A stretch of DNA of 64,000 nt. It comes from Escherichia coli. GTDB lineage: Bacteria > Pseudomonadota > Gammaproteobacteria > Enterobacterales > Enterobacteriaceae. Where the stretch lies: assembly GCF_024298765.1 (NCBI RefSeq), contig NZ_CP101210.1, one strand, 5' to 3'. The number at the start of each line of letters is the position of its first letter. Position 1 is the first letter of the stretch. Below are positions 36,652 through 59,052 of this stretch, one piece after another. Made by a program: the position numbers and the translations under genes. Below the pieces are notes generated by a model. That model was not told the origin of the DNA and ran no database searches. It saw only the letters and a program-made list of their open reading frames with translations.

Positions 36652-37047
36652 TTATTGCATTCTGGCCAGGCCGCGCTCTGTCATTTCAGCTGCCACACCG
36701 GCAGAGACACGGAACGCCGTTCCCGGCAGCACAAATGCCACAGCCTCATCCCGCGTGGCGTGAAGTGCATCAGTATGCAGCGTCACCAGTGCCACAACCG
36801 TGACCAGATCAGCCGTATCAGTCACGGTATCCGGCTGCGCTGATACCACCTCATTTTCATGTCCGGTCAGCGCATTTTCCGGGCTGACAGATGTGTCCTG
36901 ACCGGCAGCGTCATCCGTGTCATCAAGCTCCTCTTCCAGCTCTGCCACACGGAGCGCCAGTTCTTCTTTCGTCCCCGTCAGGCTGACATCACGGTTCAGT
37001 TGTTCACCCAGCGAGCGGAGACGGGCAATCAGTTCATCTTTCGTCAT
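36652..37047 (-). CDS. FI: DNA packaging protein FI
   Basis: 132 aa from MTKDELIARLRSLGEQLN... Confidence 0.9.
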   Translation of the reverse strand: MTKDELIARLRSLGEQLNRDVSLTGTKEELALRVAELEEELDDTDDAAGQDTSVSPENALTGHENEVVSAQPDTVTDTADLVTVVALVTLHTDALHATRDEAVAFVLPGTAFRVSAGVAAEMTERGLARMQ

Positions 37048-37088
37048 GGACTCCTCCACAGAGAAACAATGGCCCCGAAGGGCCATGA

Positions 37089-37877
37089 TTACGCCAGTTG
37101 TACGGACACGAACTCATCAGGGTCAGCCAGCAGCATCAGCGGTGCTGACTGAATCATGGTGAACTCACGCGCCGGATCGCCGGTGGTCACCCAGTTTTTC
37201 GGGTAACGGGCAGAGGCGTTAATGCCTTCGCGCTGTGCGTCCGCATCCTGAATGCAGCCATAGGTGCGCAGACCGCGTGCATGAGTGTTACCCAGCACCA
37301 TCGTGTTGTCCGGCAGGAAGTTCTTTTTGACGCCGTTTTCCACGTACTGTCCGGAATACACGACGATGGCCACATCGCCATACATCCCCTTATAGGACAC
37401 CGCTTTACCCAGGTCTTTCACCGCTGTCTCCAGCTCGGAATGAGAGCCGCGACGGGTATCCAGCTTCTCCTTGACGGCGTTGAAGGAACGGAACAGCGCC
37501 CAGCCTTTCGGATCAAACACGATGATATTCACCACGCCGCTGGCGTTCAGCGCGTAGGCTTCGATATCGTCGGTCGGGTCATACGTGGACTTGTCACGCT
37601 TGCTCCACTCCGTGCCGCCGGACTGCGTGATGTTGTTCGCCGCACTGCGGCCCATATCCACCTCAACCGGATCGAAGGCTTCACCGGTCATGGTGTATTT
37701 GCCCTTGAGCACGGCAGAAACTGCCTGCATCTCTTCGACCTGAGCAATGGCCAGCTCTTCGTCACGCATGTTCTGCAGGATGATGCGACGGCGGCGGTAA
37801 GCCGGGTCCGCCAGATTCTGCGGATCTTCATCCGGCAGGCGACGCAGGGTCATCTGCGGATTCACTTCATGCTTGGG
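37089..37877 (-). pseudogene. E: major capsid protein E, C-terminal portion (gene split by island insertion)
   Basis: Encodes ...PKHEVNPQMTLRRLPDEDPQ... to the E C-terminus; upstream in-frame sequence is island DNA with an immediate stop. Confidence 0.9.
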
Positions 37878-37879
37878 TT
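37870..37879. repeat. island left junction direct repeat (att core) tgcttgggtt
   Basis: Identical 10-mer recurs at 48754-48763 at the other E junction. Confidence 0.8.
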
Positions 37880-38013
37880 ACATGAGTCAAATATGAAAGG
37901 ATGTGAATGATTTGATTACGTTTTAGCTATAGAATTGAAATGGAAAATCCTTGAATGCAATACAACGTGCAATACATGGATGAAAACCATCACTCATTTA
38001 ACAAGAGGAATCT

Positions 38014-38919
38014 ATGCGCTCACCCAACAGAATGCATGAACGCTCAACATTTTATAAGTATATGTCGTTGAATACCGCGAAGATTGTTCTTGATTCATGC
38101 AGCCTTAGATGGAGTTCTCCGGTCCTATTTAATGACCCTTTTGATGTTCCAAGAGAAGTTATGCCTGGTATTAACGAAATTAATATTGGCAAAGCTTTAG
38201 CCCGCAAGTTAATAGCGGAGTTGATTACCCCCAGAGAAGACATACAAAATTTAAACCCTAGAATTAGAACAATGCTAAGTGATTTCCAAAAGTCATTTCC
38301 TTTAGGCATACCCGCAGGATTAATTGAAAGATTTCAAGAAATGGTAAACATTCCACCAGTTGGGATTGGCGCTCCTGCGGCAATACAAGAAATGAAAGAT
38401 ATCTGGCGAGGAATGCTTAATAACAGAAGGATTTTGTGTTTATCTGAGAGCCCTATAATCACTCCTATGTGGAATCACTATGCCGATAAATATAAAGGTA
38501 TAGTTATCGAATTTGATTGTGTAGACTTTCTGGATAGCGCTTGGTTAATAGCCAAACCTATGAAATACACAGATGAAATGCCTCTAACTCACACTGCTGA
38601 AGGGATGGCCGAGTTGCTTTTCATGCCAGACAATAAGTCAATTGAATATATCAATAATGAGATAATATTCATAAAAACAGAAGAATGGGCATATGAAAGA
38701 GAGTGGAGAATTTCAACCTACGCTAGGCCAAATAGCACTGGTCAATATAGCGACTTAAAATTTCACCCTTTTGAGTTAAAATCTGTAATACTTGGTCCTC
38801 TTTTTGATGCCAGCGAGTTCGATGAAGTCGCATCACTAGTTAAAATGTATCCAAGAGCGAAATTATTTAAAAGTTCATTTGGGAACGACAGAAAAATATC
38901 CATAGTACCACTACCTTAA
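38014..38919 (+). CDS. hypothetical protein, DUF2971-like (low-GC cargo gene)
   Basis: 301-aa ORF with GAGGA RBS; motifs FYKY...LRWSSPVLFNDPFD, MWNHYADKYKGIVIEFD, EREWRI recalled as DUF2971-like; family assignment from memory only. Confidence 0.6.
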   Translation: MRSPNRMHERSTFYKYMSLNTAKIVLDSCSLRWSSPVLFNDPFDVPREVMPGINEINIGKALARKLIAELITPREDIQNLNPRIRTMLSDFQKSFPLGIPAGLIERFQEMVNIPPVGIGAPAAIQEMKDIWRGMLNNRRILCLSESPIITPMWNHYADKYKGIVIEFDCVDFLDSAWLIAKPMKYTDEMPLTHTAEGMAELLFMPDNKSIEYINNEIIFIKTEEWAYEREWRISTYARPNSTGQYSDLKFHPFELKSVILGPLFDASEFDEVASLVKMYPRAKLFKSSFGNDRKISIVPLP

Positions 38920-38949
38920 AAGGTCAAATGCTTTTGACAAATAAAATCT

Positions 38950-38976
38950 ATCGCCAGTTTTACTGGCGACTTTTAA
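38950..38976 (+). terminator. hairpin terminator between convergent DUF2971-like gene and Nu1-like gene
   Basis: cgccagttttactggcg stem-loop followed by cTTTTaa. Confidence 0.35.
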
Positions 38977-39025
38977 GCAACAAAGAACCACCTAAGCACT
39001 CTTCCTACCTATGGTTTCATTTGTT

Positions 39026-39577
39026 TTAACTTCGCTGATTATCCTTGATATACCTTTCAGCCATATCTGGAATGTTATCTGAGATCTGGTAAGCTCGAAT
39101 AAATGCTTTACTGACCTCCATCTTAATGAAGTCCTGATACCGTTTTTCCATGCCAGGAAACTGTCGACAGATCGCAAGTGGAAGACTATCAATGATTGCT
39201 CCAACTTCCCCAGTTAATTTCGACAAGGCATAAGTCGCAAATGCAGTGTCAATTACCTCACCTGTTTCGCTGGCATTCTTCAGTTCCTGTGCGTCGGCCT
39301 GCGCACGCGTAAGTCGATGGCGTTCGTACTCAATAGTCCCTGGCTGGAGATCTGTCTCGCTGGCCTGCCGCAGTTCTTCAACTTCCCGGCGCAGCTTTTC
39401 GTTCTCAATTTCAGCATCCCTTTCGGCATACCATTTTATGACGGCGGCAGAGTCATAAAGCACCTCATTACCCTTGCCACCGCCTCGCAGAACGGGCATT
39501 CCCTGTTCCTGCCAGTTCTGAATGGTACGGATACTCGCACCGAAAATGTCAGCCAGCTGCTTTTTGTTGACTTCCAT
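39026..39577 (-). CDS. terminase small subunit homolog (Nu1-like chimera)
   Basis: 183 aa; residues 1-~103 essentially identical to the prophage Nu1 at 54397-54942 (winged-HTH cosB-binding domain), C-terminal ~80 aa diverged. Confidence 0.88.
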   Translation of the reverse strand: MEVNKKQLADIFGASIRTIQNWQEQGMPVLRGGGKGNEVLYDSAAVIKWYAERDAEIENEKLRREVEELRQASETDLQPGTIEYERHRLTRAQADAQELKNASETGEVIDTAFATYALSKLTGEVGAIIDSLPLAICRQFPGMEKRYQDFIKMEVSKAFIRAYQISDNIPDMAERYIKDNQRS

Positions 39578-39739
39578 TGTTCATTCCACGGACAAAAACA
39601 GAGAAAGGAAACGACAGAGGCCAAAAAGCTCGCTTTCAGCACCTGTCGTTTCCTTTCTTTTCAGGGGGTATTTTAAATAAAAACATTAAGTTACGACGAA
39701 GAAGAACGGAAACGCCTTAAACCGGAAAATTTTCATAAA

Positions 39740-39800
39740 TAGCGAAAATCCGCGCGCCTGACGCCCCGTAGCCTGTCAGATCGCCGGAAAGGACCCGCCA
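39740..39800. other. cos-like site of the island (variant cosN)
   Basis: Aligns to prophage cos at 55100-55165; the 12-mer equivalent to the cohesive end (39755-39766, cgcctgacgccc) differs at 5/12 positions from aggtcgccgccc. Confidence 0.7.
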
Positions 39801-39822
39801 GCCAGAGCGGGCCCTAATTTCA

Positions 39823-40206
39823 TCAACCAATCAGCTTATAGCGACCATCCCGTGCATTGCGGCGTACACGCTCAATCTTGAGGCATAGCGCCGCATCTGG
39901 CTTTTTTGGGACAGGTACGCGGCAATATTCAGAAGCGCGAGGAATATTATTTATCCAGTCGATCACTTCACTTAAATACCAGGCCTTACGCCCTTCCGTA
40001 ACCTGCACACGCTCCGGGAACTCTCCACTAGCCTCAAGGTTTAGCAGTGTACGCCGACTCAGGGTTGTAATTTCCATCACCTGATTCATATCAACAAGGC
40101 GCTCGCTTAAACACATTTTGTCAGCGATAGCTTTTAATTCCTCTACAGCTGGATTCGGGTACATCATTTCGGCAATTGGCTTAAGGTCATTGTAATCATT
40201 CTGCAT
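39823..40206 (-). CDS. AlpA/MerR-like HTH protein
   Basis: 127-aa ORF; central motif ITTLSRRTLLNLEASGEFPERVQVTEGRKAWYLSEVIDWIN resembles AlpA-family HTH. Confidence 0.6.
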   Translation of the reverse strand: MQNDYNDLKPIAEMMYPNPAVEELKAIADKMCLSERLVDMNQVMEITTLSRRTLLNLEASGEFPERVQVTEGRKAWYLSEVIDWINNIPRASEYCRVPVPKKPDAALCLKIERVRRNARDGRYKLIG

Positions 40207-40217
40207 TGTATCCCCCT

Positions 40218-40559
40218 TTACACACGAGCCAGCGGCTGAACAGAAATACCTGAGCCAACAAACGCTGCAATCTTTACTGACAGTTCTTTTACAGACTCAG
40301 GCCAGTTCAGAGCATCAACATTTAAGACACCTGTCTTATAGACCTGAGCCTGTGTTTTTTTCGCGGTGTCGATTTGTACAGCGGAAACATAAACCGCTTT
40401 ACCTACGCTCGAACCATCCCATACCACCAGTGCACCTGTTGCATCTTCCTGCATCAGTGGCGTAAATGCAGGAATTACCCCTTTATTAGCTGAAAATATC
40501 CCCAGCGTAGTCACCAGTGCTTCAGTGCCAGCCATGAGTTCAGTGTAATGAGTAGCCAT
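40218..40559 (-). CDS. head decoration protein, gpD-like (divergent)
   Basis: 113 aa; shared pattern with lambda D (TPLM...WDG...YK.G...WPE...AF.G..IS) at ~30% identity. Confidence 0.7.
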   Translation of the reverse strand: MATHYTELMAGTEALVTTLGIFSANKGVIPAFTPLMQEDATGALVVWDGSSVGKAVYVSAVQIDTAKKTQAQVYKTGVLNVDALNWPESVKELSVKIAAFVGSGISVQPLARV

Positions 40560-40568
40560 TGCTCCCCC

Positions 40569-41615
40569 TTAGCCAATGCGAACGGTAACAAAACGATTGA
40601 TGCGGGCCGGTATTGGCTGTGGTGCTGAATGTGTCTGCACATATTCAATAGCCGGATCACCAGGCACAATATAGTTTTTCGGTGCAAGTTCGGCTTTAGT
40701 CAGCCCCATTCGGATTAGCTCCGGATCCTGAATACCGCCATAGGCGACAATCCCCTGAAGAGCCGTATTGCCAAGCACCATCAAATCAGGATCAAGGAAA
40801 TGTTTTTCAGTTCCGTCCTCGTCGGTATAACGCCCGCTGTATACAACAATCGCAACATCGCCCATATACCCTTTAAAACTCACCGAATCACCAAGGTCTT
40901 TAAGGGCCGTTTCCAGTTCGGAATTAGAGCCACGACGGGTATCCAGAGCCTCTTTTATCGCTCTGAATGAACGGTATTTCTTCCATACATTACCGCCCAT
41001 AATGATGATATTAGTGACGCCCTCACTAAATTCTGCGTAGCTCTCAATATCATCATTTGGATCAAAAGTTTCTTTATCCTTACCTGACCACTCAGCACCG
41101 CCAGACTGAGTGATGATATTTTGTGGTTTAATATTCCAGTCCAGCTCATAACGTTCAATACCATCGCCCTCAATGATATTTTTCCCCGTTGTGATTGCCT
41201 GAACGGCAAGCCATTCAATACGTGCACGAATAGATTTAGCCTGATTTACAATCGCCTGTTTAACTTTAATATTACGCGCTCCAAAAGCATTGTATTGCTC
41301 AGGTGATACACCAGCAGGGCGCACAGCTAACTTATTTGGATCAATGCTGCTTTTCGGCTTCATATAGCCTGGACGAATTGTTTTTGATTCGTACCCTTCG
41401 TCACGTGAAACTTTACTACCCACCATAGGAGAACAAAACGCTGCAATTGGGATATTTGGATCGTCGATTGTATCAAGAATAATATCGCGCGATTCAAACA
41501 TTACCGAGCGAGTAAAAAACAAACTGGTAAACAACGCATTTAGTTGTTTTTGTACATCTACAGCATTAACCACCTGTACAAGCTGGGTAGGCGAATATAA
41601 ATCAACCATACGCAT
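40569..41615 (-). CDS. major capsid protein, gpE-like (divergent)
   Basis: 348 aa from MRMVDLYSPTQL (RBS AAAGAGG); ~50% identity to prophage E over ITQSGG...DTRRGS.SELETA...GDVAIVVYSG...MVLGNT. Confidence 0.85.
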   Translation of the reverse strand: MRMVDLYSPTQLVQVVNAVDVQKQLNALFTSLFFTRSVMFESRDIILDTIDDPNIPIAAFCSPMVGSKVSRDEGYESKTIRPGYMKPKSSIDPNKLAVRPAGVSPEQYNAFGARNIKVKQAIVNQAKSIRARIEWLAVQAITTGKNIIEGDGIERYELDWNIKPQNIITQSGGAEWSGKDKETFDPNDDIESYAEFSEGVTNIIIMGGNVWKKYRSFRAIKEALDTRRGSNSELETALKDLGDSVSFKGYMGDVAIVVYSGRYTDEDGTEKHFLDPDLMVLGNTALQGIVAYGGIQDPELIRMGLTKAELAPKNYIVPGDPAIEYVQTHSAPQPIPARINRFVTVRIG

Positions 41616-41826
41616 CCTCTTTGCATTCATTAAAAATAATTGTGGATATATGCTATCACCGATATTTGTCATGCGAATACATGCAACCGAGTGCAATGTT
41701 GTATAAAGTTTTGGGATAACAACTTCAGCGCGGATAATTAGTGTTAATATCTTAACTCCCTTTGGTCGGGATTTATGTAGCATGCCGGAAAATTTATTTT
41801 TTTCCGGCCTTTTTTATTGGCAATAT

Positions 41827-42276
41827 TTAAAACGGAATATCATCTCCCCATTGCTCATTATCTCCCACTGGTGGATGGCTTCCTTGCTGATCTGCCTGTT
41901 GTTTTGCTCTGTTCAGTGCGTCAGTAGCCTGACCCTGTTGACCTTTTTTGCCGCCCGGTCGCACCGTTCGCGCACTGATTACGCTGTCTGCGATAACCTG
42001 CCAGCCCTGCCGCGTTTCACCGTTCTGTCCAGTCCACTGGCTCACCTGCATATTACCCGCCACGCTCAGGAGTTCGCCTTTGTGATGCTTTGCCAGCGCG
42101 TCGGCTTGTCTGCCAAACGCCAGGACAGATAACCACATCGTCGCCGTTCCGTCATCTGCCTGGCTGCATGGCAAAGATACCGCCATCCGTGCCAGTGTCA
42201 TGGGTGTTCCCTTGCTGGTATGTTTTACCTGTGGGTCGTCCACCAGCCGCCCGTAAGCTGCTATTTGCGCCGTCAT
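41827..42276 (-). CDS. ssb: single-stranded DNA-binding protein
   Basis: 149-aa ORF with OB-fold pattern, Gly/Gln-rich linker and acidic C-terminal tail ...GDDIPF. Confidence 0.8.
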   Translation of the reverse strand: MTAQIAAYGRLVDDPQVKHTSKGTPMTLARMAVSLPCSQADDGTATMWLSVLAFGRQADALAKHHKGELLSVAGNMQVSQWTGQNGETRQGWQVIADSVISARTVRPGGKKGQQGQATDALNRAKQQADQQGSHPPVGDNEQWGDDIPF

Positions 42277-42287
42277 GCTGCCTGCTC

Positions 42288-42530
42288 TCAGGACTTAATA
42301 TTGATGGTTGTCACTTCCTCCGCTTCGGCAATCTCCCGTTCGGTCAGCGTGGCAAAGTTTGCAGCCGCCGTTGTCATGAATGCGCTTATCAGTTCGGGAT
42401 GTGCTTTCGCGTATCCTTCCCCGGCGTTGCGGTCTATTGCCTTAATCGCCACCCTTAGCCAGTGTTCAGCCATATCAAGGGCGCGGTAATGTGGCTTTAT
42501 ATGTTTGTTCAGTTTTCCTGATGTGTGCAT
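42288..42530 (-). CDS. hypothetical protein
   Basis: 80-aa ORF in operon between origin and ssb. Confidence 0.5.
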   Translation of the reverse strand: MHTSGKLNKHIKPHYRALDMAEHWLRVAIKAIDRNAGEGYAKAHPELISAFMTTAAANFATLTEREIAEAEEVTTINIKS

Positions 42531-42559
42531 TTTTATTTTTACCCCCTCGTTTAAAAAGT

Positions 42560-42810
42560 TTTTTGTGCACCACCACCTTGTCTACCTTGTCTACCTGATT
42601 AGTTATCAGGCCAGTAATGGCGCGGGTTTCAGGGAGGTAGACAGCCCCAAATAGCTGTCTACCTCATCTCTACCCGTCTCCTTACCTGTCTACAAAAATG
42701 GGTAGATAAGGTAGATAACAGGTAGACAGTGAAAAATAGTTATCTACCTGCATTAATGCATTGAAATAAAAGTATTTTATTTCAGTCAGGTAGACAAGGT
42801 AGATAACCAT
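42560..42810. repeat. iteron cluster, putative island origin of replication
   Basis: >12 copies of GGTAGAYA / TRTCTACC in both orientations immediately downstream of the primase gene. Confidence 0.8.
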
Positions 42811-42819
42811 TGCCATTTT

Positions 42820-44571
42820 TTATAAAAACGCATCGCAATCATCAGTAGTCGTTGCGTTGGTCTGCGTGACTCCCTTAACTTTTCGCGTAATATATTCATA
42901 TCCGTAAACTTTCGCCGCTGACCTCATAGCCTTTCCGAACTCATTCACGCTCAAACATTTCCCCTTTCCTGTATATGCCATGAAGGCCATATAGACACGG
43001 TAAAGGCTGTTTCTGGTCGTGTACTTCACGGTGTCACCACCACCGCCCATCATTAGCCCACGAGCTTCCTCCAGAAACTCCAGCGCCGCGCAAAGCTCAA
43101 CAACCGGATCCGTTTGCTGCTTTATTGCCAGAGCTTCATCACCGTCACGCTGTTCCAGTAATAAAGCCCGTGCCTTTTCAGGGTCAGCAAAATTAGCCAG
43201 CAAGCGGCGGATAATTACGGGGATTTCTGCCGCTATCTTTTCCGGTAATTCCTTGTCTTTTTCGTCCTCCCTTACAATGTTGTCGAACCGGAAAATCACC
43301 CGACGGCGTGACACACCTCCGGCCCGTTCGGTAAAGATCATCGGGTCGTTATTGGTTGCCAGTACCACCGCCCTTATTATCGTCGTGAATCGCTTCTCAT
43401 ATTTCGGGTTAATTTCAACGGGATCGCCTCCCGTGATTTTCTTGATGCCCGTGCCTTCCCCCGTATATTTCGGCTGATCGGCAAGGACGATAAGACGACT
43501 CCCGACAACCTGCGCACGCCCTCCTGCATCATCGAGTGATGTCATCTCTGCGCTTACGGTGTTCTGTTTGCCAGCAAGCAGGGTGGCAATATGGGTAAAT
43601 GTACTCTTACCGCTTCCCCCGTCTCCGGTGGCCTCAATGAACATCTGCCAGTCGTACCGGTTCGCCATAATCATGTACAGCGCGGCACATATACGCATCA
43701 TCTTGCGCGGGTCTTTTCCGGCTGCGTGCTCAAGCCATTTATGAAAGTTTGGCGCGTTATCGCGGATGTTCTCCCCTGGTGCTGGTGGCGTGTACTCAAT
43801 GCCGTTGTGCGTGGTGATCCAGTTCTCCGGCGTGTGCGGGGAAAATTCCCCCGTTTTCAGGTCAAGCGCACCATTGGCGAACGGCAGCAAATCGCCGGAC
43901 GGCTCGCCCATTGGTTCGGCAATAACTTTTAACGCTTCAACGGCGTTATTGATCACGCGTTTGCTGAAAGTGGCCCTGTGCTCTGAATAGATCGCCACCA
44001 TTTCGCGGCTCAGCTCCATTGTGCTGATCGGACACCATACCCCGCCGCGCCATACGTGAACGATTTCACTTTCCGGATGCACACAAACGCCATCAAAGCG
44101 CTCGGCAAGCAGCTGCGCGCGCTCACTGTCTGCCATCTGTGAAAGTTGCGCCTTTTGCTTCGTCGGAAGATTAAGCACCAGGCTTTCCCCACGCTCGCAT
44201 TCCTCTTTGAGTCGCGGCAACTGGTCGGATAAATCCACTGGGCTGATGTCAGTAATCCCCGCGTATTCGTGTACGGTCTTCACTCCAGCCACAGCCAGTA
44301 ACGTAACAATCTGCGTCATGCTGTGCTCTGTGATATGTCCTGCGCGGTAAACACGCACACACTGACGATCTTCATCAATGATCCGGTAATCGGTGATGTT
44401 TTTCAGTTGCTCATCAGCCAACACGACAGGCGGCACATCGTCGGCGGCAATATGTTTACCCGCCCATTCCTGCCACTCTTTCGCATGGCTCCACGCATCA
44501 CTACCTGCAAAGATGATTATCTCTGTCAGTCTGTCGCGTGGCTGTTTTTTTAAGTTCGGTGCCAGTTTCAT
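42820..44571 (-). CDS. primase/helicase-like replication protein (P-loop NTPase, D5/P4-alpha-like)
   Basis: 583-aa ORF with Walker A GDGGSGKST and primase C-terminal-like region. Confidence 0.8.
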   Translation of the reverse strand: MKLAPNLKKQPRDRLTEIIIFAGSDAWSHAKEWQEWAGKHIAADDVPPVVLADEQLKNITDYRIIDEDRQCVRVYRAGHITEHSMTQIVTLLAVAGVKTVHEYAGITDISPVDLSDQLPRLKEECERGESLVLNLPTKQKAQLSQMADSERAQLLAERFDGVCVHPESEIVHVWRGGVWCPISTMELSREMVAIYSEHRATFSKRVINNAVEALKVIAEPMGEPSGDLLPFANGALDLKTGEFSPHTPENWITTHNGIEYTPPAPGENIRDNAPNFHKWLEHAAGKDPRKMMRICAALYMIMANRYDWQMFIEATGDGGSGKSTFTHIATLLAGKQNTVSAEMTSLDDAGGRAQVVGSRLIVLADQPKYTGEGTGIKKITGGDPVEINPKYEKRFTTIIRAVVLATNNDPMIFTERAGGVSRRRVIFRFDNIVREDEKDKELPEKIAAEIPVIIRRLLANFADPEKARALLLEQRDGDEALAIKQQTDPVVELCAALEFLEEARGLMMGGGGDTVKYTTRNSLYRVYMAFMAYTGKGKCLSVNEFGKAMRSAAKVYGYEYITRKVKGVTQTNATTTDDCDAFL

Positions 44572-44867
44572 TTTTTGCCCCTGAATGCGTTAATCATGCT
44601 TTTCATTTTCTGGATGTTTCCCCGCGCTTTTTCCCTGCTGATGGGCTTACTGCGGGGTGCGGCATATACCAGGGAAAAATCACGCCGGAACTGATAAACA
44701 GGCATCACGCAGTCATAGCTATACCCCTCACGACGGTAAGTGATGCGCCGTTCTGCCACGCCTTTAATCGTTACCGTGCCGCCGTATTTATCGCGGTAAA
44801 TATCGCCGTTCATAAATTCAGGCCGAGCGGGGCCGCTGGCAATAAAGCCAGAATTTTTCATTTCCAT
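44568..44867 (-). CDS. hypothetical protein
   Basis: 99-aa ORF overlapping primase start by 4 nt. Confidence 0.55.
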   Translation of the reverse strand: MEMKNSGFIASGPARPEFMNGDIYRDKYGGTVTIKGVAERRITYRREGYSYDCVMPVYQFRRDFSLVYAAPRSKPISREKARGNIQKMKSMINAFRGKK

Positions 44868-44884
44868 ATTATTTATTCCTCGAC

Positions 44885-45106
44885 TTAACTCGACTTATTT
44901 GATAGCTGGGCACTATTTATTGCGTCATTGAGTTTTTCTGCTGCTTCATCAATAAGTGACAACAGGCCATAAGCAATATTTGCATCTTCATTGTCATTTA
45001 TGCAATCAAGCCACATATTTAATATTGCTTTTGCTGAATTATTTAAAGTTAATGAACTTTCTGCACATGCTAACAATTTAAAAAAGACTTCCCGTTCTGT
45101 ATTCAT
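44885..45106 (-). CDS. hypothetical protein
   Basis: 73-aa low-GC ORF in the island leftward operon. Confidence 0.5.
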   Translation of the reverse strand: MNTEREVFFKLLACAESSLTLNNSAKAILNMWLDCINDNEDANIAYGLLSLIDEAAEKLNDAINSAQLSNKSS

Positions 45107-45298
45107 TTAATCCCCCACCAGCTTACTTTCTTCCTCAATCAAAAAACTAGCGACACTTCCCGAAAGACGCGCCAGTAGGCTCGCCAGTGCGGATATATCA
45201 GCATCTGTAATTTTGTTCGGGTATACCTCAAGAAGGCGGCAAATAATTTCTGTCTGGTGCGCACGTTCAGCGGCTTCGTGTAATGTGATTTCCTGCAT
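45107..45298 (-). CDS. hypothetical protein
   Basis: 63-aa ORF, start/stop abutting neighbours. Confidence 0.5.
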   Translation of the reverse strand: MQEITLHEAAERAHQTEIICRLLEVYPNKITDADISALASLLARLSGSVASFLIEEESKLVGD

Positions 45299-45483
45299 TA
45301 ATGCACCTCTTTTAATTCATACACTGCTGAAATAATGACTTGTGATAAGCCATATTCTGATGATTCGCTTCTCACCGCAGCAATAGCCGTCTGAACATTA
45401 ACAGCCTTCACATTCTGAGCGATACCAATTGTGTGGCCTATTGGGTTAACAGCTCGGGCAAATACACGGAAGGTTTTAAGCAT
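45298..45483 (-). CDS. hypothetical protein
   Basis: 61-aa ORF in operon. Confidence 0.5.
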   Translation of the reverse strand: MLKTFRVFARAVNPIGHTIGIAQNVKAVNVQTAIAAVRSESSEYGLSQVIISAVYELKEVH

Positions 45484-45673
45484 GACTCACTCCCTGGCGG
45501 ATTTTTGCAGCGAATACAGCAACACAACCGGACGGGCAACGGCTACGCGCTTCGCGTTCCGTCCAGGCGGTTACGTGGATGATTTGAGATTCTCCGGCAC
45601 TCAGTGCCAGAAAACGCCACACAAAGGCCGTTTGTGTGTGTACAAGGTGTGGTATATGATTTACAGCAACCAT
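45476..45673 (-). CDS. hypothetical small protein (first gene of leftward operon)
   Basis: 65 codons from internal ATG preceded by AGGAG at -7; rest of the 243-aa ORF-track call rejected. Confidence 0.35.
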   Translation of the reverse strand: MVAVNHIPHLVHTQTAFVWRFLALSAGESQIIHVTAWTEREARSRCPSGCVAVFAAKIRQGVSHA

Positions 45674-45764
45674 AACGGCTCCTAGTTTACGTTGTTGGTT
45701 AGACGCCCCGTATGTGTTCCCAGCACTGCGGGGCGTTGCTCTTTGTATTTCAACAATCCTTTCG

Positions 45765-45797
45765 GTGTGTTTCATGTTATGAGCGCATGAAACACAC
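45765..45797. promoter_or_regulatory. operator-like inverted repeat in divergent promoter region
   Basis: tgtgtttcatg-N9-catgaaacaca perfect 11-bp arms; third half-site tgaaacacac at 45832-45841. Confidence 0.6.
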
Positions 45798-45863
45798 GTC
45801 AAGGCTTTTTGTATTTCTTTTTTTGTGTATACTGAAACACACCGATGATTAGGAGTTTCAGAA

Positions 45864-46169
45864 ATGGCAACGGCTAACAAAAACGCAAAATCACAACTGA
45901 CAACTGTCAGAGTCCCACTAGATGTTATGCAAGGGATGGAATCCGTTAAGCTGGACGGTGAAAGCAATGCCGGATTTATCGTAACCGCCATGCGCGGTGA
46001 AATCGCCCGCCGCCAGGCAGAAGGAAGCGGAGAAAATCCCCTCGTGTCTTCACTGGATGCCTTAGCTAAGGTCGAACAAATCGGCATCAAGGCAGCGGAG
46101 GAAATCGGGCAACTCGTAGCCGTCGCTCGTGAAGAACTCCAGCGGCGTAAAGCCAAAGAATCTGAATAA
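45864..46169 (+). CDS. small DNA-binding protein, ribbon-helix-helix-like, putative island regulator
   Basis: 101-aa ORF with AGGAG RBS, divergent from the replication/packaging operon; N-terminus LTTVRVPLDVMQGMESV resembles RHH. Confidence 0.55.
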   Translation: MATANKNAKSQLTTVRVPLDVMQGMESVKLDGESNAGFIVTAMRGEIARRQAEGSGENPLVSSLDALAKVEQIGIKAAEEIGQLVAVAREELQRRKAKESE

Positions 46170-46519
46170 TTAGTATCAGCGCCGTGATGTGAGTAACTAC
46201 GGCGCATTGCTATGTAAATACTGGCAATAAACAGAAAAGGTAGTTCTACTCCGAATAATTTTATCTGACACTACTCCTGAACTAACATGCGCTTATCTTA
46301 CAGGATATAAATATAAATCCATAAAATCACGATTAAATAAAGTCGCTCCAAACATAAACCACACCCAACGCTTAACAAGATAGCAACAAACAGGTAAATA
46401 ACTTGCAGAAATATTTATCGCAAGGATTATCATTATTAATGACAAATCACTTTACCAAGTCATTCCCCTCTCTTATCATAAAGAGAAAGTAATAAATAAG
46501 TTAAGGGAGTTAGAATGCT

Positions 46520-47056
46520 ATGAATCTAAAAAAAATAGCCACAAACACAAAAAACAAGATAACAGAAACATTTAATAAACTTATATTAGAGGCATCTAAA
46601 ACCCCCACACAAGATGAAATTAAAATACTTGAGAGAAGGAGTAAGAAGTTTAATTACTCCTTTTTCTCATACGCAGTCACAGGAGCTATAATAGTTTTTT
46701 GCTCTCAACCATTAATTAAATACGCAAACCCAATACTTATTTTATTGAGTGGTCTGTTACTGTCTATCATCATTATCATTCTCAGAATGATTTATATTTC
46801 ACAAGCGAATGCATCATGGACAACCAAAAAACGCTCACATGTACTAGTTCATTTTCTTTCTGCATGTTTCATAGCATCAACATTGACGTTGCTATATCAG
46901 GCTTACGATAATAACATCACACACAAATTGTACTGTAAAAATATACAACAACTTATTGAAAAAAGGATAAAAACAGAAAAAAACATCAGCATATTCAGTG
47001 GGATGCAATGCACCCCGGTATATGATTACTCTTTATTTGGATTTAATCTCTTATAA
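46520..47056 (+). CDS. hypothetical membrane protein (very low GC cargo)
   Basis: 178-aa ORF with ~3 predicted TM helices; RBS GGGAG; AT-rich. Confidence 0.6.
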   Translation: MNLKKIATNTKNKITETFNKLILEASKTPTQDEIKILERRSKKFNYSFFSYAVTGAIIVFCSQPLIKYANPILILLSGLLLSIIIIILRMIYISQANASWTTKKRSHVLVHFLSACFIASTLTLLYQAYDNNITHKLYCKNIQQLIEKRIKTEKNISIFSGMQCTPVYDYSLFGFNLL

Positions 47057-47125
47057 AGAATGTTATTACTGATTTGAGTACAAATTCTCAAATCAGTAAT
47101 TCATAATATTTTATTCTGAGATAAT

Positions 47126-47362
47126 TTAAACTACCCACTCACCTCGAATCCATGCCTGCACTTCTGAAAGACGATATGCAACAGCAGTGGAACCAATCTT
47201 GATCCGCTTAGGAAATTTTCCTTCCTTCTCCAGCTTCCAGCGTGTGCTGTTCGCAAGAGTGGTTAGCTCCCGACATTCTTTCTCACGGATCATTCGGTCA
47301 ATGTTAGGAATGTACTCCAGACCCTTTTTATCAACAATTGCCATTTTTTTCATGTTAACCAA
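47126..47362 (-). CDS. alpA: AlpA-family transcriptional regulator/excisionase
   Basis: 78-aa ORF; motif ELTTLANSTRWKLEKEGKFPKRIKIGSTAVAYRLSEVQAWI; immediately downstream of int. Confidence 0.8.
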   Translation of the reverse strand: MVNMKKMAIVDKKGLEYIPNIDRMIREKECRELTTLANSTRWKLEKEGKFPKRIKIGSTAVAYRLSEVQAWIRGEWVV

Positions 47363-48590
47363 CCTTTTGTTTGAGGATTGTCACTTTTGAATCAGCACCT
47401 GCGATGCTATTGAGATATGTAGTCCAGAGTTCCAGAGCATCCAGTTTTTTAGCCATAAACTTACTCCGGTTGTAAACACCTGCCACGCCAGGTAGCGCAT
47501 GGCCTAACAGTTGTTCTACTACATAAAATTCAACACCGAGATCACTTAGATGAGTAGATAGCGTTCTTCTAAGGTCGTGTAGTGACCATTGTTTTTCATG
47601 GCCCAAACGTTTACCGATTTTCCCCCCAATCTTGCTTACGCTTTCTCTAATTCGCAGACTTCCCAGCACATAACCAGTATGTTTTGTCTCTTCGTGAACA
47701 TCCGTTACCCACTGTCGTAGAATTTCAGGTACTGGTCTGACGATTTCAACACCAGTTTTTGAGTGATCTTTTGGTACAGTCCAAACCCAACTTTCGAGAT
47801 CCCATTCGCTCCATTCTGATAATCGGGCTTCACTCATTCGACATCCAAATACTGTACAAAGCACAAACATTTTTCGCGTGTATTCAGACATTAGTTTTAA
47901 ATCAGGCTCGACAAAAATTGCCTTCCAGAGCTGGCCGAGTTCGGCTTCATCCAGAACCCGATCCCGCTTACCTGCAATCTGCCCCACATCACTCATGCGC
48001 AAATCCTTTAAAGCATCACACGTCGCGTACTGGCGTACCCGACAAAAACGAAGAGCTAATTTAGTGTCAGAAAAAACATACGCCGCCATAACTGGTGCAT
48101 TACGTTTAATTCGGTCAAAACAGTCCAGCCATTCATATAGGTGAGTGTCATTTACGGGCAAATGACCGATATAGGGAAAGATATGCTTTCGAAATCTGCC
48201 AAGCGTTACAGCATGAGTTTTACGACGCACCTTACAGTAATTTTCATACCAGTAATTTAGTGCATCCTCCACTGTAACTGGCTTTAAGCGTTCTTCAGCC
48301 TGAATCTTAATCTGGATACGCGGATCACGTTTGTCAGCCAACCAACCACGGCACTCGTCGCGCTTTTCCCTTGCCTGTTTGAGTGACATATCAGGATATT
48401 TACCCAACGTTAGCCAGACCGGAGCAGCCCGGCCACCTGCTAACCTGTAGAAGAAAACAAAGCTCACAGCCCCTTTAGTACTCACACGAATAGAAAGCCC
48501 CTTTCCATCAGCAATGGTGATCTGCTTTTCTCTGGGTTTCCCCAGATATCCTTTAAGCGCTTTGTCGCTCAGTTTGTTCTCGCCAGCCAT
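47355..48590 (-). CDS. int: tyrosine site-specific integrase (P4-type)
   Basis: 411 aa from MAGENKLSDKALKGY; catalytic R...HDLRRT...LLGH...Y motifs; adjacent to right island junction. Confidence 0.9.
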   Translation of the reverse strand: MAGENKLSDKALKGYLGKPREKQITIADGKGLSIRVSTKGAVSFVFFYRLAGGRAAPVWLTLGKYPDMSLKQAREKRDECRGWLADKRDPRIQIKIQAEERLKPVTVEDALNYWYENYCKVRRKTHAVTLGRFRKHIFPYIGHLPVNDTHLYEWLDCFDRIKRNAPVMAAYVFSDTKLALRFCRVRQYATCDALKDLRMSDVGQIAGKRDRVLDEAELGQLWKAIFVEPDLKLMSEYTRKMFVLCTVFGCRMSEARLSEWSEWDLESWVWTVPKDHSKTGVEIVRPVPEILRQWVTDVHEETKHTGYVLGSLRIRESVSKIGGKIGKRLGHEKQWSLHDLRRTLSTHLSDLGVEFYVVEQLLGHALPGVAGVYNRSKFMAKKLDALELWTTYLNSIAGADSKVTILKQKVG

Positions 48591-48752
48591 TTTTAGCCCC
48601 AAAAAGCAATACAAGCTGCAATACAGAGATGATTGCAACACACAGATAACGAGGAAAATTCAGTGAAAGCACCAGATAAACTTATTCTTTATTATCAAAA
48701 GATTAAGTGTAAAAACCAGCAACTACACGAAAGCCTCAGAAAGCCATGCTAA

Positions 48753-48998
48753 GTGCTTGGGTTTGACATATCCCGGCGTAAATTCAGAGGTGGAGCCGCC
48801 ACGGGAACGGATAACCTCACCGGAAACAATCGGCGAAACGTACAGCGCCATGTTTACCAGTCCCGGAATTTGTGAGAGATAGACTTTCTCCGTAGTGAAG
48901 GGATAGCTCTCACGGAAAAAGAGACGCAGAAACAGCGGATCAAACTTAAATTTCTGCTCATTTGCCGCCAGCAGCTGGGCGGTTGTGTACATCGACAT
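48753..48998 (-). pseudogene. E: major capsid protein E, N-terminal portion (82 codons) truncated by island
   Basis: MSMYTTAQLLAANEQKFKFDPLFLRL...GYVKPKH then island-derived LAWLSEAFV and stop. Confidence 0.9.
48754..48763. repeat. island right junction direct repeat (att core) tgcttgggtt
   Basis: Identical to 37870-37879. Confidence 0.8.
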
Positions 48999-49053
48999 AA
49001 AAAAATCCCGTAAAAAAAGCCGCACAGGCGGCCTTTAGTGATGAAGGGTAAAG

Positions 49054-49386
49054 TTAAACGATGCTGATTGCCGTTCCGGCAAACGCGGTCCGTTTTTTCG
49101 TCTCGTCGCTGGCAGCCTCCGGCCAGAGCACATCCTCATAACGGAACGTGCCGGACTTGTAGAACGTCAGCGTGGTGCTGGTCTGGTCAGCATCAACCGC
49201 CAGAATGCCAACGGCAGCACCGTCGGTGGTGCCATCCCACGCAACCAGCTTACGGGTGGAGGTATCCAGCATCAGCGGGGTCATTGCAGGCGCTTTCGCA
49301 CTCAATCCGCCGGGCGCGGTTGCCGTATGTGCCGGGTCACTGTTGCCCAGCGGCTGGTAATGGGTAAAGGTTTCTTTGCTCGTCAT
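49054..49386 (-). CDS. D: head decoration protein D
   Basis: 110 aa from [12 protein letters not shown], matches lambda gpD. Confidence 0.95.
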
Positions 49387-54396: not shown

Positions 54397-54422
<26 letters not shown>

Positions 54423-54942
54423 TCAGCAACCCCGGTATCAGTTCATCCAGCGCGGCTGCTTTGTTCATAGCTTTGATGATATCCCGTTTCAGGAAATCAA
54501 CATGTCGGTTTTCCAGTTCCGGAAAACGCCGCTGCACCGACAGGGGGATCCCGTCGAGAATACTGGCAATTTCACCTGCGATCCGCGACAGCACGAAAGT
54601 ACAGAATGCGGTTTCCACCACTTCAGCTGAGTCTCTGGCATTCTTCAGTTCCTGTGCGTCGGCCTGCGCACGCGTAAGTCGATGGCGTTCGTACTCAATA
54701 GTCCCTGGCTGCAGATCTGTCTCGCTGGCCTGCCGCAGTTCTTCAACTTCCCGGCGCAGCTTTTCGTTCTCAATTTCAGCATCCCTTTCGGCATACCATT
54801 TTATAACGGCGGCAGAGTCATAAAGCACCTCATTACCCTTGCCACCGCCTCGCAGAACGGGCATTCCCTGTTCCTGCCAGTTCTGAATGGTACGGATACT
54901 CGCACCGAAAATGTCAGCCAGCTGCTTTTTGTTGACTTCCAT
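54397..54942 (-). CDS. Nu1: terminase small subunit Nu1
   Basis: 181-aa ORF matching lambda Nu1 end to end. Confidence 0.95.
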
Positions 54943-55099: not shown

Positions 55100-55165
55100 A
55101 TAAATAGCAAAAACCCGCGAGGTCGCCGCCCCGTAACCTGTCGGATCGCCGGAAAGGACCCGTAA
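55100..55165. other. prophage cos site (cosN cohesive-end 12-mer at 55120-55131)
   Basis: aggtcgccgccc = reverse complement of lambda cohesive end GGGCGGCGACCT; flanking sequence matches lambda left/right ends. Confidence 0.9.
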
Positions 55166-55330
55166 AGTGATAATGATTATCATCTACATATCACAACGTG
55201 CGTGGAGGCCATCAAACCACGTCAAATAATCAATTATGACGCAGGTATCGTATTAATTGATCTGCATCAACTTAACGTAAAAACAACTTCAGACAATACA
55301 AATCAGCGACACTGAATACGGGGCAACCTC

Positions 55331-57526: not shown

Positions 57527-57954
57527 TAAGCTGTGTGACGAAGTAACCACTCTTAACAGCATAACCAATTTTTTACGTACGTAAACCACTAAATGATATT
57601 TGCGAGAATGCTACCGAGTATTGAAAACACCACTACAAATACATAAGCAAATCTCAACAAATAACCAACAAATAATTTCCAGTGTTATTTTTAGCTGGTT
57701 TAAATTGAACCTTCAAATTATAGAGCACTTATAAATAACAGCCGTTAATATAAATTGGCTAACAGATTTATTTTTATTCAGCCAAGAGCCATGAATAGGA
57801 TTCGATAGAAAAAAGTTCAGATAAAAATAGAGATCTACTTCACAAATCAAACGAGAAACCAAAACTTACATCTTGAAATAATCACATTGATTAGATGAAT
57901 ATTTATCGCGCAGTGACATCATTTTTTAATAATAGTTCAAAAAAAGGGCTCACG

Positions 57955-59052
57955 ATGAAAAAATTAACAGTGGCAATTTCTGCTGTAGCTGCATCAGTAC
58001 TGATGGCGATGTCTGCTCAGGCAGCTGAAATTTATAATAAAGACAGTAACAAGCTGGATCTGTACGGGAAAGTTAATGCTAAGCACTACTTCTCCTCTAA
58101 TGATGCAGATGATGGTGATACTACTTATGCCCGTCTTGGCTTCAAAGGTGAAACCCAAATCAACGATCAACTGACTGGTTTCGGTCAGTGGGAATATGAA
58201 TTCAAAGGCAACCGCGCTGAATCTCAAGGTTCCTCCAAAGATAAAACCCGTCTTGCCTTCGCTGGCCTGAAATTCGGTGACTACGGCTCCATCGATTACG
58301 GCCGTAACTACGGTGTAGCATACGACATCGGTGCGTGGACTGACGTCCTGCCAGAATTCGGTGGTGACACTTGGACTCAAACCGACGTGTTCATGACTCA
58401 ACGTGCAACTGGTGTTGCAACCTATCGTAACAACGACTTCTTTGGTCTGGTTGATGGTCTGAATTTTGCTGCTCAGTACCAAGGCAAAAACGATCGTAGC
58501 GATTTCGATAACTACACTGAAGGTAACGGTGATGGCTTCGGTTTCTCTGCTACCTATGAATACGAAGGATTCGGTATCGGTGCAACTTATGCGAAATCTG
58601 ATCGTACCGACACTCAAGTTAATGCAGGGAAAGTTCTTCCTGAAGTATTTGCTTCCGGTAAAAATGCAGAAGTTTGGGCCGCAGGTCTGAAATATGACGC
58701 TAACAACATTTACCTGGCCACTACCTATTCTGAAACCCAGAATATGACTGTATTTGCTGATCACTTCGTTGCTAATAAAGCCCAAAACTTCGAAGCTGTT
58801 GCACAATATCAGTTCGATTTCGGTCTGCGTCCGTCCGTTGCTTACCTGCAATCTAAAGGTAAGGATCTTGGAGTATGGGGCGATCAGGACTTAGTCAAAT
58901 ATGTTGATGTAGGTGCAACCTATTACTTCAACAAAAATATGTCTACTTTCGTTGATTACAAAATCAACCTGCTTGACAAAAATGACTTCACTAAAGCACT
59001 CGGTGTAAGCACTGATGACATCGTTGCTGTAGGTCTGGTTTACCAGTTCTAA
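57955..59052 (+). CDS. nmpC: OmpC-family outer membrane porin (NmpC/Lc-type phage moron)
   Basis: 365 aa from [23 protein letters not shown] signal peptide; porin ending in VYQF; inserted between Q and lysis genes on the opposite strand. Confidence 0.92.

What the first reader, a model, noticed from the sequence alone, without database searches (positions are those of the whole stretch)
37089..48998. A 10.9-kb integrative island sits inside the prophage major capsid gene E, and precise excision would rebuild E
The two halves of a lambda-type E gene lie on the same strand 10,874 bp apart (N-terminal 82 codons at 48753-48998, C-terminal part at 37089-37877). Both junctions carry the same 10-mer tgcttgggtt (37870-37879 and 48754-48763). 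Joining the flanks across one copy gives ...GYVKPKHEVNPQMTLRR..., the uninterrupted gpE sequence. The insert has a P4-type tyrosine integrase and AlpA at the right junction, a primase/helicase-like gene, iterons and a packaging module, which is the layout of a phage-inducible chromosomal island or satellite. I do not recall a satellite whose attachment site is a conserved stretch of its helper's capsid gene. As integrated, the helper cannot express its own capsid protein, so island excision would act as a switch on helper capsid production.
Basis: partly seen in the sequence, partly recalled or inferred. Interest (0 to 1): 0.95.

Follow-up and report, generated by a model that had tools for sequence, protein, structure and literature searches.

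The report
Satellite island splitting helper capsid gene
A 10.9-kb phage satellite sits inside the major capsid gene of a lambda-like prophage and clean excision would rebuild that gene, but this arrangement was published in 2023 as a "helper-embedded PICI", so the finding is real and not new.

Summary
A lambda-type E gene is split at 48754-48998 and 37089-37869 (minus strand) by a 10,874-bp insert. The insert is bounded by the only two copies of TGCTTGGGTT in the window. Joining the flanks across one copy gives a 341-aa protein that aligns end to end with the solved lambda capsid protein. The insert has the parts of a Gram-negative PICI: integrase, AlpA, primase with iterons, SSB, capsid and decoration homologues, and a cos site with a Nu1-like terS.

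Tommasini, Mageeney and Williams (2023, PMC10111431) described this element class as helper-embedded PICIs. Their prototype 11capE uses the same 10-bp block, and they list 201 instances at this site. They showed precise excision after mitomycin C induction. The window's integrase is 99.5% identical to the prototype's. In 5,426 complete E. coli genomes, 172 carry the same integrase-side junction and 3,102 carry the empty site.

One side observation is not discussed in that paper's main text. The island's cosN (GGGCGTCAGGCG) differs at 5 of 12 positions from the helper's canonical cosN in all 10 composites examined. This instance also has a full-length terS whose C-terminal domain is seen only in satellites.

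The parts
48754..48998 (-). 5' fragment of helper major capsid gene E, covering codons 1-81 and the first two bases of codon 82. In the integrated state it reads on into the island and stops at 48723.
48754..48763 (.). Integrase-proximal copy of the 10-bp identity block (AACCCAAGCA on the late-gene strand). This is attL in the published nomenclature.
37870..37879 (.). Integrase-distal copy of the 10-bp identity block (attR).
37089..37869 (-). 3' fragment of helper gene E, from the last base of codon 82 to the stop codon.
47355..48590 (-). Tyrosine integrase, 411 aa. It is 99.5% identical to the integrase of the published prototype 11capE.
48606..48625 (-). Doubled TGTATTGC motif on the integrase-side arm of attP. 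A third copy with one mismatch lies about 17 bp nearer the core.
   Evidence: motif defined in PMC10111431
37957..37976 (-). Doubled TGTATTGC motif on the cargo-side arm of attP.
47126..47353 (-). AlpA-family excisionase/regulator, 100% identical to the 11capE AlpA.
46520..47056 (+). 178-aa hypothetical protein on the opposite strand. It has no PHROG or PADLOC match and lies in a variable accessory slot.
45864..46169 (+). YlcI/YnfO-family protein on the opposite strand.
44568..45673 (-). Icd-like protein, three small hypothetical ORFs and a DUF4222 protein, all upstream of the primase.
42820..44571 (-). Primase/helicase-type replication initiator, 583 aa. It is only 48% identical to the prototype's primase, so the replication module has been swapped.
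42575..42811 (.). Iteron field of at least ten AGGTAGAYA-type copies in both orientations, immediately downstream of the primase. This is the presumed origin of replication.
   Evidence: the position of the origin in PICIs is from PMC6092414
41827..42530 (-). 80-aa hypothetical protein and SSB (149 aa).
40569..41609 (-). The island's own major capsid protein homologue, 346 aa. It is 42% identical to the rebuilt helper E.
40218..40559 (-). The island's head-decoration (gpD-like) homologue. It is 36% identical to the helper's D.
39823..40206 (-). Second AlpA-family helix-turn-helix protein, 127 aa. It shows no sequence match to the solved Rpp structures.
39578..39800 (-). Island cos region. It has a cosQ-like box, the variant cosN GGGCGTCAGGCG, and lambda-type cosB R sites. 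It matches the helper cos closely except at cosN.
39026..39577 (-). Nu1-like small terminase, 183 aa and intact. Residues 1-102 are identical to the helper's Nu1. For the C-terminal 83 residues the best match in any phage record is 41%.
38014..38919 (+). DUF2971 cargo gene on the opposite strand. It matches the PADLOC candidate defence family PDC-S31. The RefSeq start in a relative corresponds to 38161.
55120..55131 (-). Helper cosN, the canonical lambda sequence GGGCGGCGACCT, upstream of Nu1 and A. Given for context.
17084..17098 (-). Lambda att core with one mismatch, next to ybhB. It marks the low-coordinate end of the helper prophage, which sits at the classical lambda attachment site. Given for context.

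Best explanation
The insert is a helper-embedded phage-inducible chromosomal island (HE-PICI) of the published site group E:Phage_cap_E:80. It sits in the major capsid gene of a lambda-like prophage that occupies the classical lambda attachment site between ybhB and ybhC.

Its tyrosine integrase recombined a 10-bp core (AACCCAAGCA) in the island's attP with the same 10 bp at codons 79-82 of helper gene E. The island carries no replacement sequence, so E is non-functional while the island is integrated.

All of the island's main genes point the same way as the helper late operon. After SOS induction the most likely sequence is as follows:
1. The composite excises from the chromosome and replicates.
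2. Q-antiterminated late transcription runs from D and the E fragment into int and alpA.
3. Integrase and AlpA excise the island, which rebuilds an intact E.
4. The island replicates from its own primase and iteron origin and is packaged through its own cos site into particles made with helper proteins.

What is shown here: the anatomy, the exact restoration of E, the att architecture, and near-identity to the prototype. What is shown in the literature for the prototype only: the order of excision and replication. What is inferred: read-through transcription as the trigger, packaging, and transfer.
For: - The split and the rebuilt gene: only two copies of the 10-mer exist and they lie at the junctions. 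The rebuilt E is a full 341-aa match to solved lambda gpE.
- The empty site: it is present in 3,102 of 5,426 complete E. coli genomes. In viral contig L008 the two flanks abut and share one copy of the 10-mer.
- The occupied site: the integrase-side junction is in 172 genomes. Seven further composites were read in detail and all have the island co-oriented inside a split E.
- Identity to the prototype 11capE of NRG857c: Int 99.5%, AlpA 100%, capsid homologue 99.7%, decoration homologue 100%, 127-aa HTH protein 100%.
- The doubled TGTATTGC motifs specific to HE-PICI attP are present on both arms.
- Iterons lie directly downstream of the primase.
- No terminator-like hairpin was found on the late-gene strand between D and int.
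- The paper reports the same 10-bp block, 201 instances, and precise excision after mitomycin C following composite replication. It also lists a helper at PBP|ybhC.
Against: - No excision, replication or transfer data exist for this strain.
- The window ends inside the helper's replication region, so its repressor, int and xis were not seen and inducibility cannot be judged.
- The authors of the prototype study could not detect plaque-forming particles.
- The island's cosN differs from the helper's at 5 of 12 positions, so cleavage by the resident helper's terminase is not assured.
- The island terS is a pseudogene in several relatives, which suggests parts of the late zone are decaying.
Confidence: 0.9

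Rival explanations
1. The composite is a fossil. A lambda-like prophage was inactivated by an island that no longer excises, so E is permanently broken and nothing is switched.
For: - No virions could be recovered from the prototype.
- terS carries an internal stop in four relatives, and SSB does in one.
- Annotated IS remnants lie near this end of the prophage in the colinear strain 200177.
Against: - Int, AlpA, both att cores and all four arm motifs are intact.
- Every helper late gene from Nu1 to tfa is a full-length ORF.
- The prototype, whose integrase is 99.5% identical, excises precisely in 42-98% of composites after induction.
- The island is found in several different helper backgrounds, which implies recent mobility.
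Confidence: 0.07
2. The island is mainly an anti-phage or host-protective element. By holding the helper's capsid gene hostage and carrying defence cargo, it limits prophage output. Its own transfer is secondary.
For: - The cargo gene at 38014-38919 matches the PADLOC candidate defence family PDC-S31 at E = 1.8e-32.
- The same slot holds HEPN and DUF262 genes in NRG857c and in strain 104.
- The paper expects reduced helper yield.
Against: - This does not compete with the satellite reading. PICIs commonly combine interference with their own transfer.
- The island keeps replication, cos and integration functions that an element serving only defence would not need.
Confidence: 0.03

Closest known systems
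HE-PICI Eco567.11capE and the E:Phage_cap_E:80 group (Tommasini, Mageeney & Williams 2023, NAR Genom Bioinform 5:lqad036)
   Same: - Same target gene, same codon and same 10-bp identity block.
- Co-orientation with the helper late operon.
- Int 99.5% identical; AlpA, decoration homologue and the 127-aa HTH protein 100%; capsid homologue 99.7%.
- The same doubled TGTATTGC motifs on the attP arms.
- The same variant cosN.
   Different: - The helper is at the lambda attachment site (ybhB|ybhC) instead of icd. That combination is also listed in the paper's supplement.
- The primase module is only 48% identical.
- terS is a full-length 183-aa Nu1-like gene here. The prototype has a 64-aa remnant and is described as lacking terS.
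- The cargo is a DUF2971 gene instead of HEPN plus DUF262.
EcCICFT073, the model Gram-negative cos PICI (Fillol-Salom et al. 2018, 2019)
   Same: - int-alpA, then primase and origin, then capsid and decoration homologues, then cos.
- Lambdoid helper.
- No portal, protease, large terminase, tail or lysis genes.
   Different: - EcCICFT073 integrates in the chromosome and interacts with its helper only in trans.
- It keeps a lambda-like cosN but has a different cosB, which is read by an Rpp-TerS heterodimer.
- The window island has the reverse pattern: lambda-type cosB R sites and a changed cosN.
- No protein with sequence similarity to the solved Rpp structures was found.
Intervening elements that give regulated gene integrity, such as the B. 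subtilis skin element in sigK and the Listeria phage in comK. These examples are from my own knowledge; the paper uses the term 'regulated gene integrity'.
   Same: A gene is split by an integrative element, and developmentally timed excision restores it.
   Different: Here the interrupted gene belongs to another mobile element, the helper phage. The timing serves the satellite and not the host cell.
Capsid-forming PICIs (Alqurainy et al. 2023)
   Same: A satellite that encodes its own major capsid protein homologue and a small terminase.
   Different: cf-PICIs encode a complete head and packaging module. No portal, protease or large terminase gene is annotated in a 99.4%-identical copy of this island or turned up in the PHROG scan of ten of its proteins.

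Membership tests
HE-PICI, site group E:Phage_cap_E:80 | Integrated inside a late gene of a prophage and co-oriented with that gene | tested here: met
   The island lies inside E. Its int, alpA, primase, capsid homologue and terS are all on the minus strand, as is the helper late operon from Nu1 to tfa.
HE-PICI, site group E:Phage_cap_E:80 | attL/attR identity block aacccaagca at about codon 80 of the Phage_cap_E family protein | tested here: met
   The exact 10-mer is at both junctions, at codons 79-82 of E. It matches the block in the paper's supplement.
HE-PICI, site group E:Phage_cap_E:80 | Integrase belongs to the HE-PICI clade or subclade | tested here: met
   409 of 411 residues are identical to the 11capE integrase of NRG857c. 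No tree was built, but at 99.5% identity one is not needed.
HE-PICI, site group E:Phage_cap_E:80 | Two co-oriented copies of the doubled motif tgTGTATTGCantgTGTATTGCa flanking the attP centre | tested here: met
   TGTATTGC pairs begin 101 and 89 nt upstream and 134 and 146 nt downstream of the core centre in the rebuilt attP. The paper gives 81 +/- 2 and 132 +/- 2. The upstream figure differs by roughly 8-20 nt depending on which point of the motif is measured, and the paper's reference point is not stated in the text read.
HE-PICI, site group E:Phage_cap_E:80 | Four ordered zones: integration, Bro/dynamic, replication, late | tested here: inconclusive
   The integration (int, alpA), replication (primase, iterons, SSB) and late (capsid and decoration homologues, cos, terS) zones are present in the published order. 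The dynamic zone holds YlcI/YnfO-like, Icd-like and hypothetical genes. No Bro-N domain or C4/isrK RNA was detected, and Pfam was not run.
HE-PICI, site group E:Phage_cap_E:80 | Precise excision after helper induction, restoring the late gene | not testable with these tools
   This was shown for the prototype by qPCR and deep sequencing. Here only the sequence consequence was verified, namely an intact 341-aa E.
Gram-negative PICI (Fillol-Salom 2018 criteria) | Integrase, AlpA, a primase-type replication gene with the origin directly downstream, size 10-20 kb, and no tail or lysis genes | tested here: met
   The island is 10,874 bp. Int, AlpA, the primase and the downstream iterons were found. 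No tail or lysis gene is annotated in a 99.4%-identical copy.
Gram-negative PICI (Fillol-Salom 2018 criteria) | Helper-dependent induction and high-frequency transfer in phage particles | not testable with these tools
   This has not been demonstrated even for the prototype, for which no particles were detected.
Capsid-forming PICI | Own complete head and packaging module (portal, protease/scaffold, major capsid protein, connectors, TerS and TerL) | tested here: not met
   Only a capsid homologue, a decoration homologue and terS are present. No portal, protease or large terminase was found.
Rpp-type cos PICI (EcCICFT073-like packaging redirection) | An Rpp protein together with a PICI-specific cosB that lacks the lambda R sites | tested here: not met
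   The island's cosB keeps the lambda-type R sites and matches the helper closely there. The 127-aa HTH protein matches an AlpA-family structure (8c3t) and not the Rpp structures. A distant Rpp relative cannot be excluded by sequence search alone.

The most novel reading that the evidence does not exclude
The embedded satellite has its own packaging specificity, distinct from that of the helper it sits in. Its cosN (GGGCGTCAGGCG) is invariant across islands whose flanking bases differ. It mismatches the resident helper's canonical cosN at 5 of 12 overhang positions in all 10 composites examined. In this instance it is paired with a terS whose DNA-binding half is identical to the helper's Nu1 and whose terminase-binding half is seen only in satellites.

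If this is functional, three consequences are possible. It could keep the integrated island's cos from being cut within helper concatemers. It could make satellite and helper cohesive ends incompatible. Or it could tie the satellite to the rarer lambda-like phages that carry the same variant cosN (L008, L048, L060). None of this is discussed in the main text of the 2023 paper as searched.
Probability: 0.2. Interest if true: 0.5.

Novelty: already known. Interest (0 to 1): 0.2.

Why it matters
A satellite that lodges in its helper's capsid gene links the two elements in cis. The helper cannot build heads until the satellite leaves, and the satellite is replicated and probably transcribed by the helper before it does. 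That idea is interesting, but it has been in the literature since 2022 (preprint) and 2023 (paper), with hundreds of instances catalogued, and this window adds one more.

The remaining value lies in open questions that the published work did not settle:
- Are particles made at all?
- Which terminase cuts the island's divergent cosN?
- What do the satellite's own capsid homologue and chimeric small terminase do?

Tried and rejected
- **Assembly chimera:** rejected. The same junction is in 172 complete genomes.
- **Chance repeat:** rejected. The 10-mer occurs only at the two junctions, and the flanks abut across a single copy in an empty-site relative.
- **Rpp-type packaging redirection:** rejected at the sequence level. 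The 127-aa HTH protein matches AlpA and not Rpp, and cosB is lambda-type.
- **Capsid-forming PICI:** rejected. There is no portal, protease or large terminase.
- **P4-type immunity RNAs (C4/isrK):** no Rfam match at E <= 0.1 across 37000-49100.
- **A phage source for the variant cosN:** none among 50,697 phage records, where the best match across cosN is 93.6%. Three prophage-type viral contigs do carry it upstream of Nu1/A or Nu1.
- **A phage source for the terS C-terminal domain:** none closer than 41% identity.
- **Defence annotation of other island genes:** PADLOC gave only weak or off-target hits apart from the DUF2971 gene.


Full report
**The observation**

The 10-mer TGCTTGGGTT occurs exactly twice in the window, at 37870-37879 and 48754-48763. 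About 0.17 copies are expected by chance. On the minus strand the upstream junction reads ...ccgggatatgtcAAACCCAAGCActtagcatgg... and the downstream junction reads ...gactcatgtAACCCAAGCAtgaagtgaatccgcag.... The identity is 10 bp and no more.

The ORF 48723..49025 carries the E N-terminus up to ...TPGYVKPKH and then runs into island sequence. The ORF 37089..37865 carries NPQMTLRR... through to the E stop codon. Joining the flanks across one repeat copy gives a 1,026-nt ORF. Its product aligns 1-341 of 341 with the solved lambda major capsid protein 7VI9, with six substitutions and no gap at the junction. The insert is 37880-48753, which is 10,874 bp.

**Anatomy of the insert**

In late-gene orientation (minus strand, high to low coordinates) the island contains:
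- a tyrosine integrase (47355-48590) and an AlpA-family protein (47126-47353);
- two opposite-strand genes, a 178-aa hypothetical protein and a YlcI/YnfO-like protein;
- an Icd-like gene, three small ORFs and a DUF4222 protein;
- a 583-aa primase-type initiator (42820-44571);
- an iteron field at 42575-42811, with at least ten AGGTAGAYA-type copies in both orientations, immediately downstream of the primase;
- an 80-aa ORF and SSB;
- a major capsid homologue (40569-41609), 42% identical to the rebuilt helper E;
- a gpD-like decoration homologue, 36% identical to the helper's D;
- a second AlpA-family helix-turn-helix protein of 127 aa;
- a cos region (39578-39800);
- a 183-aa Nu1-like small terminase (39026-39577);
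- an opposite-strand DUF2971 gene (38014-38919).

These assignments rest. No portal, protease, large terminase, tail or lysis gene is annotated in a 99.4%-identical copy of the island. No Rfam family matched across the island.

**Context**

The island sits in a lambda-like prophage whose late operon is otherwise made of full-length ORFs, from Nu1 at 54397-54942 to tfa at 20563-21144.

The window is colinear with E. coli strain 200177. In that strain the prophage lies between ybhB/bioA and ybhC. A lambda att core with one mismatch lies at 17084-17098 next to ybhB. The helper therefore occupies the classical lambda attachment site.

The window ends in the helper's replication genes. Its repressor, int and xis were not seen.

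**Empty and occupied sites elsewhere**

A 310-bp rebuilt attB is present uninterrupted in 3,102 of 5,426 complete E. coli genomes, at 100% identity in the twelve best records listed. The integrase-side junction is present in 172 genomes. The cargo-side junction is present in 31. At least 80% of the island is present in 51.

Viral contig L008 is 97.7% identical to the helper late region. The two flanks abut there and overlap by exactly the 10-mer.

Seven further composites were read in full (L063-L069). All have the island co-oriented inside a split E, in several different helper backgrounds. This excludes an assembly artefact and shows the site is used repeatedly.

**This is published**

Their prototype, Eco567.11capE in E. 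coli NRG857c, is an 11-kb PICI in the capsid gene E of a lambda-like prophage. It has a 10-bp identity block and carries its own capsid gene. They state that the helper's capsid gene cannot be expressed until the satellite excises.

After mitomycin C, qPCR and deep sequencing showed three steps in order: excision of the composite, its replication, and then precise satellite excision in 42-98% of composites at 2-3 h. [quoted passage not shown]

Their supplement gives the block as aacccaagca. One attL listed there (Eco15150.12) matches the window junction over the bases compared by eye. It also lists a helper at PBP|ybhC.

**Membership tests done here**

- Against NRG857c, the window's Int is 99.5% identical. 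AlpA, the decoration homologue and the 127-aa HTH protein are 100% identical. The capsid homologue is 99.7% and SSB 95% identical.
- The doubled TGTATTGC motif that the paper reports only in HE-PICI attP sites is present on both arms of the rebuilt attP, co-oriented, and five of the ten exact copies of TGTATTGC in the window lie inside the island, four of them in these arm motifs. The downstream offset matches the published figure. The upstream offset is some 8-20 nt larger than published, depending on which point of the motif is measured.
- The zone order integration, dynamic, replication, late is as published.

The island is therefore a member of the published group. It differs from the prototype as a mosaic variant:
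- The primase module is only 48% identical.
- The region after cos carries a full terS and a DUF2971 gene. The prototype has a 64-aa Nu1 remnant plus HEPN and DUF262 genes.

The paper reports 220 HE-PICI genotypes, so such variation is expected.

**Likely mechanism, and what is inferred**

- Shown here by sequence: the split, the exact restoration of E, intact int and alpA, both cores, the arm motifs, the origin, and the co-orientation.
- Shown in the literature for a prototype with a 99.5%-identical integrase: the order composite excision, replication, satellite excision.
- Inferred: helper late transcription reads from D and the E fragment into int and alpA. The scan found no terminator-like hairpin on that strand between D and int, but it is a crude consensus match.
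- Also inferred: packaging and transfer. The authors could not recover particles.
- In strain 200177 the composite spans roughly 60 kb by my arithmetic from the coordinates. That is above the lambda packaging limit discussed in the paper, so the island would have to leave before the helper can be packaged.

**Seen in passing: the two cos sites do not match**

The island's cos region matches the helper's closely from the cosQ-like box through cosB and the first 102 codons of Nu1. The exception is cosN: GGGCGTCAGGCG in the island against the canonical GGGCGGCGACCT in the helper, a difference at 5 of 12 positions.

The same mismatch holds in strain 200177, in the published prototype NRG857c, and in seven more composites, making 10 of 10 examined. 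The bases flanking cosN vary between islands while the variant cosN does not.

No phage record among 50,697 carries the variant. Of 57 viral contigs that carry it:
- about 49 have it in island context, at a fixed distance after the capsid, decoration and HTH genes;
- three have it in phage context, directly upstream of a 99%-identical Nu1 (L008, L048, L060), and in L008 a 98%-identical gene A follows;
- five showed none of the island or helper proteins used as queries.

The paper's main text says only that 258 bp are shared at 90% identity with the helper's cos. Whether the resident helper's terminase cuts this site is unknown. That may bear on the failure to find particles.

**Seen in passing: the small terminase is a chimera**

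Residues 1-102 of the island terS are identical to the helper's Nu1, and overall identity is 74%. For the last 83 residues, which in lambda Nu1 include the part that binds the large terminase, the best match in any phage record is 41%.

The gene is intact here and in strain 23AR0885. It has an internal stop in four relatives. It may be a decaying capture or an interference or redirection factor. I could not tell which.

**Verdict**

It merits low interest as a discovery. A modest residual interest attaches to the cosN mismatch and the chimeric terS.

Noticed in passing
window 39578-39800 versus 55100-55170; also L004, L062, L001/L003, L063-L069: The island's cosN (GGGCGTCAGGCG) differs from the resident helper's canonical lambda cosN (GGGCGGCGACCT) at 5 of 12 positions, while cosQ, cosB and the 5' end of Nu1 match closely. 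This holds in 10 of 10 composites examined, including the published prototype. The variant stays constant while the flanking bases vary.
   Followed up: partly
L008 (1234-1300 and 7632-7641), L048, L060: Three prophage-type viral contigs carry the variant cosN directly upstream of a lambda-type Nu1 (99% identical). In L008 a 98%-identical gene A follows, and E is uninterrupted, making it an empty attB. No record in the 50,697-genome phage collection has the variant.
   Followed up: partly
window 39026-39577 (minus strand): The island terS is a chimera. Residues 1-102 are identical to the helper's Nu1, and the best match for the C-terminal 83 residues in any phage record is 41%. It is intact here and in strain 23AR0885 and has an internal stop in four relatives. 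The prototype has a 64-aa remnant.
   Followed up: partly
window 38014-38919 (plus strand): The opposite-strand cargo gene (DUF2971) matches the PADLOC candidate defence family PDC-S31 at E = 1.8e-32. The same slot, between cos/terS and attR, holds HEPN plus DUF262 in NRG857c, strain 104 and FDAARGOS_1268, and a different hypothetical gene in MN06021. It behaves as a variable cargo hotspot.
   Followed up: partly
window 45864-47056; L068 and L069, 17157-18466: A second variable slot lies between alpA and the Icd-like gene. Here it holds a 178-aa hypothetical protein and a YlcI/YnfO-like protein. In LST200A and 23AR0885 it holds another DUF2971 gene and a SWIM zinc-finger gene.
   Followed up: no
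window 42575-44571 versus L004 7230-9340: The replication module (primase) is swapped relative to the prototype, at 48% protein identity. The integration and late modules are 97.5-98% identical at the DNA level.
   Followed up: partly
L063, L064, L067, L068, L069 junctions versus window 37870-37879 and 48754-48763: The identity block is AACCCAAGCA in some composites and AGCCGAAGCA in others. Within a given composite it is the same at both junctions, tracking a synonymous allele of E (AAA CCC versus AAG CCG). This could help locate the crossover point.
   Followed up: no
window 17084-20560 and 57895-59052: The helper prophage ends at a lambda att core next to ybhB. In the colinear strain 200177 the annotated genes between tfa and this end are IS remnants and an AraC-family regulator. 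The helper also carries an OmpC/NmpC-like porin gene between Q and the lysis genes, as DLP12-type prophages do.
   Followed up: no
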